Below are positions 9,442 through 20,634 of a DNA stretch of 50,856 nucleotides, one piece after another; position 1 is the first letter of the stretch, and each line of letters opens with the position of its first letter. The stretch comes from a virus. Taxonomy: Duplodnaviria > Caudoviricetes. The notes below the pieces were generated by a model that searched no databases, had not been told where the DNA came from, and saw nothing but the letters and a program-made list of their open reading frames with translations. The DNA lies in the IMG/VR virus record IMGVR_UViG_3300028806_000015, positions 1 to 50,856 of that record. The stretch is one strand, 5' to 3'. The translations under genes were made by a program, and so were the position numbers.

Positions 9442-11940
9442 ATGGGTCCAAAAGCACCAAGACTAACAGGAGACGTGAATCCATTTGGTGATTTTGGAAT
9501 AGACATTTATCGGATTGCTGAGGCATTGGGCAAGCCCCAGAAGAGTAAGGATGGATGGATGTGCTGCTGTCCAGCCCACGATGATAAGAACCCTAGCTTA
9601 TCCATTAGGATGCGAGATGGTCGCATTCTTTTGTATTGTTTTGCTGGCTGCAAGTTTACGGATATTATTTATGAGATACGTGAACGAGGATTGCTTGTTA
9701 CGGATTCCTGTAACACCCCTCCCAAATCGTGTTACGGAACTCCTAATTTTAGTTACAACTCTGTTACAAGAAAAAGAGACGACGGTGTTACGGCTACTGT
9801 TACAGGGTCTGTTACAGACTCTTCTTCTCTTGCTTTAAGAGATAATTATCATATTGAATCTAATGAAGAAAATATTTTATTAAAAAACTCTTTGCAAGAA
9901 GATATTTTTTCTGATACCCTCTTATCAAGTAACTCAGTTACTAATATATCAGTAGATAAGTTACTTAATAATACAGTAACTGATATATCTGTTACTGAAG
10001 TAACAAATATCTCTACTACTGATGTAACATATATTCCTACTACTGAAGTAACAGAAATCTCTACTATTTCAGTAACTAATATCCCTAAAAAGAATAACTT
10101 AGTAACAGAAATTACTAATATTAATGAAGTAACTTATATATCTAATATACCAGTAACTGATATTATTAATAGTAATATTACTATAGATTCATCAGATTTT
10201 AAGAAAAACTTAACTACTGTCCCTTATGCTCCAATAAAAAAACAAGTAGTAGAAGATAATTTATCTAAAGAATTATTCAAAAAAGATCAAGAAACATTAG
10301 ATAATATTAAATCTATTTGGGATTATGGTATTAATGTAACTGAAACTCTTGGTGAAATTTATTTAAATACACGAGGTATATTTATTGAAAATATTATAGA
10401 CAAGATAAATTCTTGTATAAGATTTAATAAATCTGTGTTTCATCCTTTTTTAAAGGAAAAAATGCCTTGTTTGCTTTCGAAGATAGTTGACAAAGAGAAT
10501 AATTTTGTAGGAATACAGAATATTTATCTTGATAATCAAGGCAATAGGATATCAAAGGATCAACGTAGTAAGATTACTCGTGGGAAGATCAAGGGGAACT
10601 ATTTTGCGATTGGTGAGTTTCAGGAGAGGATGATCATCTCTGAGGGTGTGGAGGATGCCGTTTTTTTGGCCACCAGATGCCCGGAACGGTCTGTCTTGGC
10701 ATCTCTGGGCACATCCACCTCTATTGCCCTTCCAGAGGTCGTAAAAGAGGTAATAATTGCAGCTGATGCTGATGTGGCTGGTAGGAAGCATGCTAGTCGC
10801 TTAAAGAGATATCTCCAAGATAGCGGAAAATCAGTAAATATAATCTATCCTCCTACATGTAAAGATTTTAATGATTATTACCTTGAAAAAGAAGATATAA
10901 AAATAAAGGAACAAAGAAACAATAAAATATTAGATTTAATAAATAATATTAGATTAGAAATATCTAATACATTTAGTATGTATACTGATTTTAATTTTAT
11001 TACAAAGAATCAAGTAGCAAATTCAGATTTTTTGATAGATTCGATACTTCCAAGAGTTGGTGTGTCAATCCTTCTTGGCCATCCCAAGATTGGGAAAAGT
11101 TGGATAGCTCAAGGCTGGATTACTGATATCCTTTTGGGTAAAAAAGTATTCGAAACTTTCGATACAAACAAAGTAGGGGTTTTATTTTATGCTTTAGAAG
11201 ATAATGCTTCTAGACTAAAGACAAGATTCTCTAAACTAAATCCAGCATTATACTTTGATGAAAATATGTTTGATGTTATTACTCATTGTTCTTCTCTTGA
11301 TCAAGGAGAACTCAACAGGTTGCGAGAATATTTAGAATCTCATCCTCATATTAGATTTATTGTTATAGATCCTTTTGAAAAGATTCGTCCTAATGGCACT
11401 ACAGGTAAGTCAGCTAATGCATATCAAACAGATTATCGAGATATAAGTTTATTGAAAGAAATAGCTGAAGAATTTGAGATATCTATTCTGCTAGTTCATC
11501 ATCTTAAGAAAGAAACAACTGGTGATTCTATTCGAGATGTTAATGGTTCTATTGGAATGACTGCTTCCGTTGATGCAATCTTTATGCTAACTAAAAAAGA
11601 TGAAATATATACCTTCGATAAGAAAGGAAAAGACATAGATGCAGAAACCTTCAGAATGGAATTCGATTACGAGTCTGGAAGATTTTTAATAGCAGAAGAT
11701 CTGCAAGAGGAAAAAGTGAATTTACAAAATAAGATTTTAGAATATATAAAATTATCTCAATCAATTGTTTCTAATGCTTGTTTGTATAGATCTTTGGGCA
11801 AGACTTCTGAAGCAGGTAAAGTTCAAGTTAGGAGAGCTCTAAAATATTTAACAGATAAAAAAGAAATTGATCGAGTAGATAATGGTGTTTATAAAATATC
11901 TGAGAACTCTGTAATAATTAATGATTGGTGGAATAATTAA
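9442..11940 (+). CDS. Primase-helicase replication protein (Zn finger + TOPRIM + RepA/AAA_25-type helicase + C-terminal wHTH)
   Basis: CCCPAHDDKNPSLS...YCFAGC zinc-binding domain; EGVEDA and AADAD TOPRIM motifs; Walker A GHPKIGKS, Walker B IVIDP, LLVHH. Confidence 0.9.
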   Translation: MGPKAPRLTGDVNPFGDFGIDIYRIAEALGKPQKSKDGWMCCCPAHDDKNPSLSIRMRDGRILLYCFAGCKFTDIIYEIRERGLLVTDSCNTPPKSCYGTPNFSYNSVTRKRDDGVTATVTGSVTDSSSLALRDNYHIESNEENILLKNSLQEDIFSDTLLSSNSVTNISVDKLLNNTVTDISVTEVTNISTTDVTYIPTTEVTEISTISVTNIPKKNNLVTEITNINEVTYISNIPVTDIINSNITIDSSDFKKNLTTVPYAPIKKQVVEDNLSKELFKKDQETLDNIKSIWDYGINVTETLGEIYLNTRGIFIENIIDKINSCIRFNKSVFHPFLKEKMPCLLSKIVDKENNFVGIQNIYLDNQGNRISKDQRSKITRGKIKGNYFAIGEFQERMIISEGVEDAVFLATRCPERSVLASLGTSTSIALPEVVKEVIIAADADVAGRKHASRLKRYLQDSGKSVNIIYPPTCKDFNDYYLEKEDIKIKEQRNNKILDLINNIRLEISNTFSMYTDFNFITKNQVANSDFLIDSILPRVGVSILLGHPKIGKSWIAQGWITDILLGKKVFETFDTNKVGVLFYALEDNASRLKTRFSKLNPALYFDENMFDVITHCSSLDQGELNRLREYLESHPHIRFIVIDPFEKIRPNGTTGKSANAYQTDYRDISLLKEIAEEFEISILLVHHLKKETTGDSIRDVNGSIGMTASVDAIFMLTKKDEIYTFDKKGKDIDAETFRMEFDYESGRFLIAEDLQEEKVNLQNKILEYIKLSQSIVSNACLYRSLGKTSEAGKVQVRRALKYLTDKKEIDRVDNGVYKISENSVIINDWWNN
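9697..10157. repeat. GTTAC/GTAAC iteron-like array, putative replication origin inside the primase gene
   Basis: About 20 copies by my count (10 GTTAC, 10 GTAAC); 24-bp spacing at 9976-10072. Confidence 0.65.
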
Positions 11941-12620
11941 TGACAACCTTTGTAAGGTCAATAGATATACCTGATATATATGATACTATAGTCTATAGAT
12001 GGATTAATTATCCAATATTCTTAATGCATAGAAACAATGCAGTAGAAGAAACATATAAGAATTTATATAAGAGAGAATTTCTAATATTCCATAATGAAAA
12101 AATAGAACCATTAGAGTTTGATGGTAAATTATTTTTACCTATTGTTGTAGATCAATTACACTGGCCCGATACATATAGCACGGAGAATTATTCTATAATG
12201 ATAGAAGATTCAAAATATAAGAATGAACATTTTATAAAATATACAAAACAATCAGAACATCTTGCGACCAGAGAATGTATTACGGAGGAAAGAGATTTGC
12301 AAACAAGTAAATTAACCGATCAGATATTTAAAGATTTAGCGAGAGAAATTAAAAGGATTAACTTACTTGCAGAAGAACAAATTATACAAGAATTAAAAGG
12401 ACTCTCAAGTAATTTAGAAAAACAGATTGAAAACGATGTTAAAGACTTTGAGGTATGTTATTTTAGTATCGAAGATGAAACGAGAACTATAGGAGTTAAA
12501 GTAACTCATATTCCAACGCAAATTGCACATACTCAAATAGATCATTCAGAAAATCTAGATCCTGATAAATCTATTCAGATATTAAGAGAAATACTCAACA
12601 GGTTTAAGGAGAAAAAATGA
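11940..12620 (+). CDS. Protein with C-terminal degenerate release-factor (RF-1-like) domain, no GGQ
   Basis: DFEVCYF...IGVKVTHIPTQI resembles RF DLRIDTF...[12 protein letters not shown]. Confidence 0.55.
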   Translation: MTTFVRSIDIPDIYDTIVYRWINYPIFLMHRNNAVEETYKNLYKREFLIFHNEKIEPLEFDGKLFLPIVVDQLHWPDTYSTENYSIMIEDSKYKNEHFIKYTKQSEHLATRECITEERDLQTSKLTDQIFKDLAREIKRINLLAEEQIIQELKGLSSNLEKQIENDVKDFEVCYFSIEDETRTIGVKVTHIPTQIAHTQIDHSENLDPDKSIQILREILNRFKEKK

Positions 12621-13015
12621 CATCTTCTAAAAGAAAATTAAAATATATTAAAGAAGAAGACTTACAAATCGATATTTACAAACTGGACGATGATTCCGTC
12701 TTGGCCGGATGTTCAGCCGTGCGTGTTACACATCTTCCTAGTGGCAAGATTAGTTGTGCAGCTGGGAGTTTCGTAATAACCACCAATGGCATTACTATGG
12801 ATGTATCAGAGAATGTAAGGGTTGCTGTAAAGGATCTGGAAAAACAGTTAAAGAAGGAAAACACTAAAAACAAATGGACATGCAAATGTGAACATTGTGA
12901 GGAAATAATAAAATTCGAAGAAGAGATTTCTAATGACTCTTCGTATGATTCAATTGGTGCAAGAACTTTAGCATCTTGTCTTTGTGATCACTGTTTTCAA
13001 AGAAGGATGATATGA
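12617..13015 (+). CDS. RF-1-domain-like protein lacking GGQ, with C-terminal Cys4 Zn finger
   Basis: EEDLQIDIYK...SAVRVTHLPSGK...ENVRVAVKDL; CEHC and CDHC pairs. Confidence 0.7.
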   Translation: MTSSKRKLKYIKEEDLQIDIYKLDDDSVLAGCSAVRVTHLPSGKISCAAGSFVITTNGITMDVSENVRVAVKDLEKQLKKENTKNKWTCKCEHCEEIIKFEEEISNDSSYDSIGARTLASCLCDHCFQRRMI

Positions 13016-20428: not shown

Positions 20429-20502
20429 TGGGGTGTCGTCTAAAGGTAGGACACCTGGCTTTGGACCAGTGAATATAGGTTCGATTCCTGTCGTCCCAAC
20501 CA
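20429..20502 (+). tRNA. tRNA-Gln (TTG)
   Basis: Acceptor TGGGGTG/CGTCCCA, anticodon loop CT-TTG-GA, T-arm ATAGG-TTCGATT-CCTGT, encoded CCA. Confidence 0.92.
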
Positions 20503-20509
20503 GATATAT

Positions 20510-20634
20510 AAGGACATAGCTTAGCGGTAAAGCAACTCGGAATAAGAATTGAGATATTGATTGGCGATGGTAGTAGCACTTATCAAGATTTTTAGGAGAG
20601 GAAGTCATGAGTTCAAATCTCATTGTCCCTACCA
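20510..20634 (+). tRNA. tRNA-like RNA with ~50-nt insertion in the anticodon arm; anticodon unassignable
   Basis: Acceptor AAGGACA/TGTCCCT + ACCA, D-arm GCTT-AGCGGTA-AAGC, T-arm ATGAG-TTCAAAT-CTCAT; 125 nt. Confidence 0.65.

What the first reader, a model, noticed from the sequence alone, without database searches (positions are those of the whole stretch)
11940..13015. Two tandem release-factor-domain mimics that lack the catalytic GGQ
Seen: ORF 12617 has EEDLQIDIYKLDDDSVLAGCSAVRVTHLPSGKISC...ENVRVAVKDL, and the C-terminus of ORF 11940 has KDFEVCYFSIEDETRTIGVKVTHIPTQI. Established: class I release factor domain 3 (also ArfB/YaeJ) reads [33 protein letters not shown]..., and GGQ is essential for peptidyl-tRNA hydrolysis. 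In both phage proteins the GGQ loop is replaced by an acidic loop (DDDS, EDE); one adds a Cys4 Zn finger. They are translationally coupled to the primase. Inference: catalytically dead mimics that block termination or ribosome rescue, act as decoys for PrmC or defence proteins, or reuse the fold for another function.
Basis: partly seen in the sequence, partly recalled or inferred. Interest (0 to 1): 0.75.

Follow-up and report, generated by a model that had tools for sequence, protein, structure and literature searches.

The report
Tandem phage release-factor domains lacking GGQ
Two neighbouring phage genes carry copies of the peptide-releasing domain of bacterial release factors that have lost the catalytic Gly-Gly-Gln loop, so they probably bind a target rather than cut it, and what that target is remains unknown.

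Summary
ORF2 (12617-13015) is a divergent but statistically secure homologue of the RF-1/GGQ domain of RF1/RF2. Its GGQ loop is replaced by a shorter acidic loop, and a Cys/His-rich tail follows. The C-terminus of ORF1 (11940-12620) is a more eroded copy, which I rate probable, not certain. Both genes overlap their upstream neighbour's stop codon and follow a primase-helicase gene.

Support is from sequence only. Foldseek did not recover a release-factor fold from a medium-confidence model.

The pair is not unique in kind. It belongs to a widespread phage family of stand-alone RF domains without GGQ: Myrna gp2, Pseudomonas phage 73 ORF037 and a 78-aa protein of Acinetobacter T4-like phages. 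Databases label these "RF-1 domain" or "peptidyl-tRNA hydrolase". This scan has noted the family before on other DNA (87 notes). I found no paper describing it.

New here are the tandem pair, the Cys/His tail, the strongly acidic domains and the link to a primase.

Function is untested. My best guess (about 0.35-0.4) is a non-catalytic binder of the translation apparatus. Rivals are a replication accessory or a decoy for a protein that recognises RF domain 3.

The parts
9442..11940 (+). Primase-helicase fusion gene (context). It is the first gene of the three-gene string.
   Evidence: Pfam: CHC2 zinc finger, DUF7146, Toprim_3/2, AAA_25. Its stop TAA at 11938-11940 overlaps the ORF1 ATG.
11940..12620 (+). 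ORF1, 226 aa. An orphan N-terminal region of about 165 aa, then an eroded RF-like domain at the C-terminus.
   Evidence: No homologue beyond near-identical copies. No family hit for the N-terminal part.
12441..12617 (+). ORF1 RF-like domain, residues 168-226: strand KDFEVCYF, short loop, strand VKVTHIPTQ, then SEN and a helix.
   Evidence: The GGQ-less-family HMM aligns residues 168-198. The canonical HMM aligns 186-226. hhalign. BLASTP.
12465..12494 (+). ORF1 loop SIEDETRTIG, in the place of the GGQ loop.
   Evidence: Alignments.
12606..12611 (+). AAGGAG Shine-Dalgarno-like site, 5 nt before the ORF2 start and inside the end of ORF1.
   Evidence: Read from the sequence.
12617..13015 (+). ORF2, 132 aa: RF-1-type domain without GGQ, plus a Cys/His-rich tail.
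   Evidence: The ATGA overlap with the ORF1 stop is visible. The identical protein is on record on 8 contigs.
12644..12868 (+). ORF2 RF-1-type domain, residues 10-84.
   Evidence: AF2 model: E16-22, E33-39, E52-56, H63-84, with pLDDT of roughly 70-89 over most of the core.
12683..12712 (+). ORF2 loop LDDDSVLAGC, which replaces the GGQ loop and is 3 residues shorter than in RF1.
   Evidence: BLASTP to E. coli RF1. HMM alignment. hhalign.
12881..12994 (+). Cys/His-rich module: two CxCxHC knuckles (C89, C91, H93, C94 and C121, C123, H125, C126), 26 residues apart. Probably binds zinc.
   Evidence: Positions. No zinc-finger family hit; the only match is a weak GpA_ATPase hit, E 0.0073. Low pLDDT in the model.

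Best explanation
ORF2 is a divergent stand-alone copy of the bacterial release-factor peptidyl-hydrolase domain (RF-1/'GGQ' domain). It is of the RF1/RF2 type rather than the ArfB type. The catalytic GGQ loop has been replaced by a shorter acidic loop, and a Cys/His-rich, probably zinc-binding, tail is fused to it.

ORF1 ends in a second, more eroded copy of the same domain, behind an orphan N-terminal region.

Both genes appear to be made from the primase-helicase transcript through overlapping stop and start codons.

They are outlying members of a widespread phage family of GGQ-less stand-alone RF domains (phrog_20323 and phrog_32571).

Without GGQ they cannot hydrolyse peptidyl-tRNA. The retained framework is D..D in strand 1, R/K-x-T-H-x-P in strand 2, and S plus the helix. 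I read this as a binding module.

Most likely they act without catalysis on the translation apparatus early in infection. The target could be the ribosome, a tRNA, or a partner of release factors.

Shown: homology, loss of GGQ, gene arrangement and family membership.
Inferred: loss of catalysis, co-expression, and everything about the target.

Odds: ORF2 is an RF-domain homologue, about 0.9. The ORF1 C-terminus is one, about 0.75. The target lies in the translation apparatus, about 0.35-0.4.
For: Homology:
- See the observation check.
- With an HMM of 15 GGQ-less proteins, none from this window, ORF2 scores E 1.5e-8 and ORF1 E 0.0012 among 3309 segments from 39 sources.
- A profile of 10 GGQ-less proteins (ORF2 as the first row) hits 45 distinct PDB sequences at E<=0.001. 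All are named release factors (RF2, RF1, mitochondrial RF1 types, release factor H, C12orf65), best E 2.5e-16.
- The 4-row profile A2 retrieved 1244 proteins at E<=0.01. Every listed hit beyond the seed family (the window's two proteins and Myrna-like P0005-P0008) carries PF00472.

RF1/RF2 type: prfA E 0.0086 against prfB 0.1, and no alignment to E. coli ArfB.

Family:
- Myrna gp2 and Phabba gp2 lack GGQ.
- So do 9 further small proteins among the 120 listed hits.
- So do 9 of 27 IMG/VR loci: 8 by string, plus L031, whose only GGQ lies outside the domain.
- So do phage 73 ORF037, ZZ1, PhT2 and Ac42.
- ORF2 shares the family's LExxL...(K/G)W motif after the helix.

Link to translation or RNA in other members:
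- The gene lies inside tRNA clusters of Acinetobacter T4-like phages.
- An 'RF-1 domain' CDS is the core of Mycobacterium G1 tRNA arrays (PMC5966550, passage).
- RlaP and HIT are neighbours in Phabba, and a PNKP phosphatase lies near the L032 gene.

Precedents for Gln-less release-factor homologues that bind without cutting: MRPS35 and Dom34 (PMC6514570, passages), Balon (PMC10901736, passages) and PrfB3 (PMC5897788, passages).
Against: - Pfam's own cut-off is not reached: 12.3 against 35 bits. The six-frame PF00472 search of the record found nothing at E<=0.001. phmmer of ORF2 against PDB found nothing at E<=10.
- ORF1 has no RF hit in Pfam, PHROGs or NCBIfam. It falls outside E<=0.05 with the canonical HMM in the larger set of 3309 segments.
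- Foldseek with the pLDDT-69.6 model found no release factor in PDB (best E 0.66, COMMD9) or BFVD.
- The Atlas search by features gave no RF cluster.
- Both domains are acidic and their loops are short. They have no codon-recognition domain and no ArfB-like basic tail, so it is unclear what would hold them on a ribosome.
- In this window the only context is DNA replication. The tRNA genes lie 7.4 kb away.
- Both proteins are orphans. Only near-identical copies exist in 1.84 billion representative proteins, so conservation cannot be assessed.
Confidence: 0.45

Rival explanations
1. Fold reuse in DNA replication. The RF-like beta/alpha module plus the Cys/His tail acts as an accessory of the primase-helicase, for example as a loader, an ssDNA or primer binder, or a regulator. 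It would have nothing to do with translation.
For: - Both genes are stop/start-overlapped with the primase-helicase gene.
- Pseudomonas phage 73 ORF037, also GGQ-less, lies directly downstream of a DNA primase that is not detectably homologous to this one. BLASTP best E is 5.2, so the adjacency arose twice.
- In L028 the GGQ-less gene overlaps the start of a T4 gp59-type helicase loader.
- Acidic small proteins with zinc modules are common in phage replication modules (general knowledge, not tested here).
Against: - Most other members sit in tRNA clusters or beside RNA-repair genes.
- There is no hit to any DNA-binding or replication family.
- Phage early and middle operons often mix replication genes with host-takeover genes, so adjacency is weak evidence.
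Confidence: 0.2
2. Decoy. The acidic RF-domain copies titrate a host protein that recognises domain 3 of RF1/RF2, such as the methyltransferase PrmC or a defence or toxin protein that senses or modifies release factors.
For: - The framework outside the catalytic loop is retained while the loop itself is replaced.
- The domains are acidic, unlike the 108 canonical domains, which suits protein binding better than rRNA binding.
- Two copies are made together.
Against: - PrmC's substrate is the Gln of the GGQ loop (established knowledge, recalled), and that loop is exactly what is missing.
- There is no match to any PADLOC defence family: 0 of 5 proteins. This only shows that they are not known defence components.
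- No candidate target was identified.
Confidence: 0.15
3. No current function. ORF2 is a decaying remnant of a captured release-factor fragment, and the ORF1 resemblance is a chance match to the short motif VKVTHIPT.
For: - Both are orphans.
- ORF1 scores only about 10-16 bits and has no library hit.
- The structure searches gave nothing.
Against: - Both ORFs are intact and tightly packed, with an SD site.
- ORF2 is identical on 8 contigs.
- The positions invariant in the GGQ-less family (D15, D19, T38, H39, P41, G43, L74, E75, L78 in ORF2 numbering) are kept.
- ORF1 is the second-best hit of 426 segments with two independent HMMs and lies next to the best hit.
- The same loss of GGQ recurs across many phage lineages with conserved replacement loops.
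Confidence: 0.1

Closest known systems
Domain 3 (RF-1 / GGQ peptidyl-hydrolase domain, Pfam PF00472) of bacterial class I release factors RF1 and RF2
   Same: The strand-loop-strand-strand-helix order is shared. So are the D-L-x-I-D strand, the R-x-T-H-L-P-(T/S)-G strand and the S...L helix. ORF2 aligns to E. coli RF1 213-252 and to canonical profiles.
   Different: There is no GGQ, and the loop is 3 (ORF2) to about 5 (ORF1) residues shorter and acidic. There are no codon-recognition or GTPase-interacting domains. The domains are acidic rather than basic. The score is below Pfam's cut-off.
Phage stand-alone RF-1 domains without GGQ: Myrna gp2 and Phabba gp2 (phrog_32571); the Acinetobacter T4-like 78-aa protein, Ac42p144 and Pseudomonas phage 73 ORF037 (phrog_20323)
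   Same: These are stand-alone RF1/RF2-type domains with the same retained framework and no GGQ. ORF2 hits both PHROGs and Myrna gp2 at BLASTP E 1e-8. ORF2 shares the short loop, the acidic character and the LExxL..W tail with the actinophage subgroup. Phage 73 ORF037 also follows a primase.
   Different: ORF2 has no Trp in the loop, whereas about half of the members seen here do. It carries a Cys/His tail not seen in the others. It is paired with a second copy in the upstream gene, and no adjacent second copy was found in the 38 other loci examined. It is not in a tRNA cluster.
ArfB (YaeJ) / ICT1: stand-alone GGQ domains with a basic C-terminal tail
   Same: The RF-type domain stands alone, without codon-recognition domains.
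   Different: ArfB keeps GGQ and is an active hydrolase anchored by a basic tail (PMC6514570, passages). ORF1 and ORF2 have neither. BLASTP to E. coli ArfB finds nothing for ORF2 and only noise for ORF1.
Gln-less release-factor homologues that work without catalysis: MRPS35 and plant PrfB3 (bacterial-type domain); Dom34/Pelota and Balon (archaeo-eukaryotic type, a different fold)
   Same: The catalytic Gln is lost and the scaffold is kept for binding. The roles are a structural ribosomal protein, an RNA-3'-end protector, and A-site factors (PMC6514570; PMC5897788; PMC10901736; passages only).
   Different: Those are cellular or organellar multi-domain proteins with known targets. These are small phage proteins with an unknown target. 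Dom34 and Balon are analogues, not homologues.

Membership tests
RF-1 domain (Pfam PF00472) | Score at or above Pfam's gathering cut-off (35 bits) | tested here: not met
   ORF2 scores 12.3 bits, E 0.17. ORF1 has no hit. The six-frame search of the record found 0 matches at E<=0.001.
RF-1 domain (Pfam PF00472) | Significant profile similarity over the domain in directed tests with controls | tested here: met
   ORF2: 21.5 bits, 0/1000 shuffles reach it, rank 1 of 426; hhalign 93.9%; the family profile hits 45 release-factor sequences in PDB. ORF1 is only borderline: 10.3 bits, rank 2 of 426 at E 0.0098, hhalign 64.6%.
RF-1 domain (Pfam PF00472) | GGQ motif in the loop between strands 1 and 2 | tested here: not met
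   ORF2 has LDDDSVLAGC and ORF1 has SIEDETRTIG at that place.
RF-1 domain (Pfam PF00472) | Three-dimensional fold superposes on RF domain 3 | tested here: inconclusive
   The AF2 model (pLDDT 69.6) has the expected order of strands and helix. Foldseek found no RF in PDB or BFVD. The Atlas's own model is nearest to RF-1 clusters at TM 0.49 and 0.48. The VIA-align libraries were not available.
RF-1 domain (Pfam PF00472) | Ribosome binding and peptidyl-tRNA hydrolysis | not testable with these tools
   This needs biochemistry.
Phage GGQ-less stand-alone RF domains (phrog_20323 / phrog_32571) | Match to the PHROG profiles | tested here: met
   ORF2: phrog_32571 E 3.6e-5 and phrog_20323 E 2.2e-4. 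ORF1 has no PHROG hit, but scores E 0.0012 with my own HMM of 15 members.
Phage GGQ-less stand-alone RF domains (phrog_20323 / phrog_32571) | Framework kept (D..D strand, T-H-x-P-(T/S)-G, S + helix Leu) while GGQ is absent | tested here: met
   ORF2 keeps all columns that are invariant in the 10-row alignment. ORF1 keeps D169, T189, H190, P192, T193 and S204, but has Q194 in place of G.
Phage GGQ-less stand-alone RF domains (phrog_20323 / phrog_32571) | Trp at or near the place of the catalytic Gln (W-loop subgroup) | tested here: not met
   Neither loop has a Trp. Trp is present in Myrna, Phabba, P0007, P0008, L015, L023, L032, phage 73, ZZ1 and PhT2. It is absent in P0009-P0011, P0101, P0104, L020, L025, L028, L031/L034 and Ac42.
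Phage GGQ-less stand-alone RF domains (phrog_20323 / phrog_32571) | Location in or beside a tRNA gene cluster (seen in the Acinetobacter T4-like members) | tested here: not met
   The window's tRNA-Gln and the tRNA-like gene lie at 20429-20631, which is 7.4 kb away.
ArfB / ICT1 | GGQ plus a basic C-terminal tail that enters the mRNA channel | tested here: not met
   No GGQ. The ORF2 tail is Cys/His-rich and the protein's pI is 6.3. There is no BLASTP alignment to E. coli ArfB.
Zinc ribbon / zinc finger | Two pairs of metal ligands in knuckles, and a match to a zinc-finger family | tested here: inconclusive
   Two CxCxHC knuckles are present. No zinc-finger family matched in Pfam, NCBIfam or PHROGs. 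The nearest Atlas clusters by features include small zinc-finger proteins, but only at scores of 0.83-0.84, which count as leads only. The model is low-confidence in this region.

The most novel reading that the evidence does not exclude
ORF1 and ORF2 are two made-together subunits of a viral inhibitor built from release-factor domain 3. It would be an acidic, loop-less mimic that occupies the docking site of RF1/RF2 domain 3, either on the 50S subunit or on a host protein that recognises that domain. It would thereby reprogram termination or ribosome rescue, or disarm a translation-targeting defence, while the phage replicates. If so, the whole GGQ-less phage family would be a new class of translation-directed phage effectors.
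Probability: 0.15. Interest if true: 0.8.

Novelty: new variant of a known kind. Interest (0 to 1): 0.5.

Why it matters
Databases label members of this phage family "peptide chain release factor" or "putative peptidyl-tRNA hydrolase". Every member I inspected lacks the residue that does the chemistry, so those labels are probably wrong.

The most thorough survey of release-factor evolution that I could read lists only MRPS35 as an inactive bacterial-type domain. Its main text never mentions phages (PMC6514570, passages; its supplements were not seen).

A recurrent, conserved and catalytically dead copy of the release-factor active domain, found in many unrelated phages, suggests an unexplored way of manipulating translation or RNA metabolism.

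This window adds an extreme variant to the family: a tandem pair, acidic, carrying a Cys/His tail, and joined to a primase. That widens the range of the family. It also cautions that its role may not be the same everywhere.

Tried and rejected
Homologue searches. Both proteins are orphans.
- The word-indexed searches returned only the proteins themselves or a one-residue variant, P0003.
- The exhaustive phmmer search of 1.84 billion representatives returned ORF2 itself and P0004.
- P0004 is a 1660-aa autotransporter-like protein made of near-identical repeats. Its E of 4e-16 comes from 14 copies of a short low-complexity match, so I reject it as a homologue.
- blastn of the region and tblastn of ORF1 against phages gave nothing.
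- IMG/VR scans with ORF2 and with the primase found no relatives.

Structure.
- The single-sequence AF2 model of ORF2 was unusable, with pLDDT 44.
- The Atlas model of ORF1 is poor (pLDDT 0.42) and its neighbours are uninformative; RF-1 clusters appear only at TM 0.30 and 0.24.
- Foldseek searches of PDB and BFVD gave no significant match.

Other negatives.
- Complex prediction on ORF1 plus ORF2 returned no verdict, with score 0.00 against the mark of 0.32. I do not count this for or against binding.
- PADLOC gave no hits for 5 proteins.
- ArfB shows no similarity.
- The primase of phage 73 is not homologous to this one.
- The simple scans found no terminator-like site after ORF2 on the + strand. 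Promoter-like sites were fewer than in shuffles, 16 against a mean of 22.6, so no internal promoter is supported.

Context. I found no single conserved gene context across the GGQ-less loci.

Literature. The searches found no paper that describes GGQ-less RF domains of phages.

Full report
What is there. The window is a whole IMG/VR virus record of 50,856 bases, estimated 93% complete. On the + strand an 832-aa primase-helicase gene runs from 9442 to 11940. It has a CHC2 zinc finger, DUF7146, Toprim and AAA_25 domains. ORF1 follows at 11940-12620 (226 aa), then ORF2 at 12617-13015 (132 aa). The primase stop overlaps the ORF1 start (TAATG). The ORF1 stop overlaps the ORF2 start (ATGA), with AAGGAG 5 nt upstream. 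No + strand gene follows ORF2; the next genes converge from the other strand. The simple scans give no terminator-like site after ORF2 and no excess of promoter-like sites. Co-expression with the primase is therefore a reasonable inference, not a result.

ORF2 is an RF-1-type domain.
- Three libraries give weak hits that agree on the same region. Pfam RF-1 gives E 0.17, 12.3 bits, below the 35-bit cut-off. phrog_20323 'RF-1 domain peptide chain release factor' gives E 2.2e-4 and phrog_32571 gives E 3.6e-5. TIGR00019 prfA gives E 0.0086, mapping ORF2 residues 11-81 to prfA positions 219-292.
- To test this directly I fetched E. coli prfA and arfB. ORF2 aligns to RF1 213-252 with E 3e-5 and 17/44 identities. 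RF1's GGQ (233-235) faces a gap and unrelated residues. Nothing aligns to ArfB.
- An HMM built from seven GGQ-bearing domains scores ORF2 at 21.5 bits, and 0 of 1000 shuffles reach that.
- hhalign against 36 canonical domains gives probability 93.9%, E 1.5e-7.
- Results on the other side: phmmer against PDB finds nothing at E<=10, and the six-frame PF00472 search of the record finds nothing at E<=0.001.

The ORF1 C-terminus is probably a second copy.
- No library reports an RF hit for ORF1.
- Directed tests are positive but modest. BLASTP to RF1 244-274 gives E 0.021, to Myrna gp2 E 0.001, and to ORF2 E 0.015.
- The canonical HMM gives 10.3 bits (0/1000 shuffles reach it) and the Myrna-family HMM gives 10.9 bits (1/1000).
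- hhalign probabilities are 64.6% and 75.9%.
- The best control uses all 426 stop-to-stop segments of the window, which share its composition. With two independent HMMs, ORF2 and ORF1 rank first and second (E 3.2e-6 and 0.0098; 4.1e-7 and 0.008). The third is at 0.68 and 2.3.
- With an HMM of 15 GGQ-less proteins from elsewhere, ORF1 scores E 0.0012 among 3309 segments. With the canonical HMM in that larger set it falls outside E<=0.05.
- The two HMMs together align ORF1 residues 168-226: strand 1, loop and strand 2 with the GGQ-less HMM, and strand 2 plus the helix with the canonical HMM.
- That the second-best segment is the gene next to the best one adds weight.

Loss of GGQ and other features.
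- In RF1 the loop between the two strands holds [13 protein letters not shown]. ORF2 has LDDDSVLAGC there and ORF1 has SIEDETRTIG. Both are shorter, acidic and without Gln.
- The domains have net charge -2 (ORF2) and -4 (ORF1), each with pI 5.2. For 108 GGQ-bearing domains returned the median is +2, the range is -1 to +10, and the lowest pI is 6.3.
- ORF2 ends in two CxCxHC knuckles 26 residues apart. No zinc-finger family matches.

Structure.
- A single-sequence model failed, with pLDDT 44.
- With an alignment of ten GGQ-less proteins the model reached pLDDT 69.6 and pTM 0.56. It has strands at 16-22, 33-39 and 52-56 and a helix at 63-84. That is the order expected for the RF domain, and confidence over most of this core is roughly 70-89.
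- Foldseek nevertheless found no release factor in PDB (best E 0.66) or in BFVD. The aligner that does not depend on Foldseek was not installed.
- The ESM Atlas's own model of ORF2 (pLDDT 0.60) is nearest to two RF-1 clusters at TM 0.49 and 0.48. Its feature search gave no RF cluster.
- The fold is therefore consistent with the RF domain but unproven.

The family.
- tblastn of ORF2 against phages gave six weak hits, all to residues 11-49. One is mycobacteriophage Myrna gp2, annotated 'putative RF-2', which itself lacks GGQ. Phabba gp2 has GGE at that place.
- ORF2 against Myrna gp2 gives BLASTP E 1e-8, and phrog_32571 is that family.
- A profile of ORF2, Myrna gp2, Phabba gp2 and the ORF1 C-terminus retrieved 1244 proteins at E<=0.01. 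Of the 120 listed, 11 lack GGQ: the window's two proteins and nine others. The other 109 are ordinary RF-1 proteins.
- In IMG/VR, 27 loci were confirmed. Nine of them encode a domain without GGQ in the loop: eight by string search, plus L031, whose only GGQ lies far outside the domain.
- The 78-aa protein of locus L023 has tblastn matches in 121 phage records, 67 of them Acinetobacter phages. The weaker matches include full-length RF genes in unverified records. Annotations in the listed records include 'RF-1 domain peptide chain release factor', 'putative peptidyl-tRNA hydrolase' and 'prfB'.
- I inspected four further lineages: Pseudomonas phage 73 ORF037, ZZ1, PhT2 and Ac42. All four lack GGQ.
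- About half of the members I saw have a Trp at or next to the place of the Gln. ORF1 and ORF2 do not.
- The members with a long W-loop are basic (phage 73 +4, ZZ1 +3). The short-loop actinophage members are mostly acidic, like ORF1 and ORF2.
- ORF2 also shares the LExxL...(K/G)W motif after the helix with the actinophage group.
- A profile of ten GGQ-less members hits 45 distinct PDB sequences, all of them release factors.

Context in relatives.
- In the Acinetobacter T4-like phages the gene lies inside or beside the tRNA cluster. In L023 and PhT2 it is 0.7-1.3 kb from a tRNA with a CUA anticodon.
- In Phabba it lies between a HIT protein and an RlaP RNA-repair nucleotidyltransferase. In L032 a PNKP phosphatase domain is two genes away.
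- A published survey reports an 'RF-1 domain' CDS as the core gene of one type of Mycobacterium tRNA array (PMC5966550, passages).
- On the other side, phage 73 ORF037 follows a DNA primase that is not homologous to this window's. In L028 the gene overlaps the start of a gp59-type helicase loader.
- Only this window has two adjacent copies among the 39 sources scanned. L010 has a weak second hit 3.4 kb away.

What is known.
- By the passages I read, Burroughs and Aravind (PMC6514570) list RF1, RF2, ArfB and PrfH as Gln-bearing bacterial-type domains. They list MRPS35 as the one inactive version.
- PrfB3 of plants lost SPF and GGQ and protects an mRNA 3' end (PMC5897788, passages).
- Balon, of the other release-factor fold, lacks GGQ and sits in the A site of hibernating ribosomes (PMC10901736, passages).
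- A 2026 paper links the T-even tRNA region and SegB to escape from a tRNA-cleaving defence. I saw only its listing and the start of its abstract (PMC13096335).
- My searches found no paper on GGQ-less phage RF domains.
- This scan has noted the family before on other DNA: 87 notes in at least 80 genomes. These include Acinetobacter phages, an actinophage and a crAss-like phage where the gene overlaps IF3.

Reading.
- Shown: ORF2 is an RF1/RF2-type domain homologue without GGQ. ORF1 very probably carries a second copy. Both belong to a recurrent phage family.
- Inferred: they are catalytically dead and are made together with the primase-helicase.
- The target is unknown. Family-wide context leans towards translation and RNA, which is why I rank a non-catalytic binder of the translation apparatus first (about 0.35-0.4).
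- The acidic, short-looped domains and the replication context of this particular pair keep two rivals alive: a replication accessory (0.2) and a protein decoy (0.15).
- A relic without function is unlikely (0.1).

Noticed in passing
window 20510-20631 (+), 7 nt after tRNA-Gln(UUG) at 20429-20502: A second tRNA-like gene about 122 nt long matches Rfam tRNA end to end at 41 bits (gathering score 29), but ARAGORN does not call it. It must carry a large insertion.
   Followed up: partly
L023:4191-4265 and L039:1196-1268: Acinetobacter T4-like phages carry a tRNA with a CUA (amber-reading) anticodon, called 'tRNA-Pyl'. It lies 0.7-1.3 kb upstream of the GGQ-less RF-domain gene in the same tRNA cluster. 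A link between amber suppression and an RF-domain mimic would be worth testing.
   Followed up: no
L010:1-1910 and L004:1-1767 (Phabba and Myrna genome starts): HIT-domain protein, the GGQ-less RF-domain protein and an RlaP-type RNA-repair nucleotidyltransferase form an overlapping gene string.
   Followed up: partly
L015:4995-5612: A GGQ-less RF domain is fused to a C-terminal domain of phrog_8298/phrog_16645 (function unknown). tRNA-Lys and tRNA-Trp lie 4 kb downstream.
   Followed up: no
window 9442-11940, primase residues about 150-260: Between the CHC2 zinc finger and the DUF7146/Toprim part, the primase-helicase has a long low-complexity stretch of repeated V-T-(D/E/N)-I-(S/P)-like units. 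It is visible in the translation.
   Followed up: no
L003, L005, L006, L008, L009 ('UNVERIFIED' phage records): The tblastn hits in these records are full-length RF1/RF2 genes with GGQ, 338-371 aa. They are probably bacterial DNA in unverified phage assemblies, not phage release factors.
   Followed up: no
P0004: A 1660-aa autotransporter-like protein made of about 14 near-identical 86-residue repeats produced a misleading E of 4e-16 against ORF2 through repeat inflation.
   Followed up: yes
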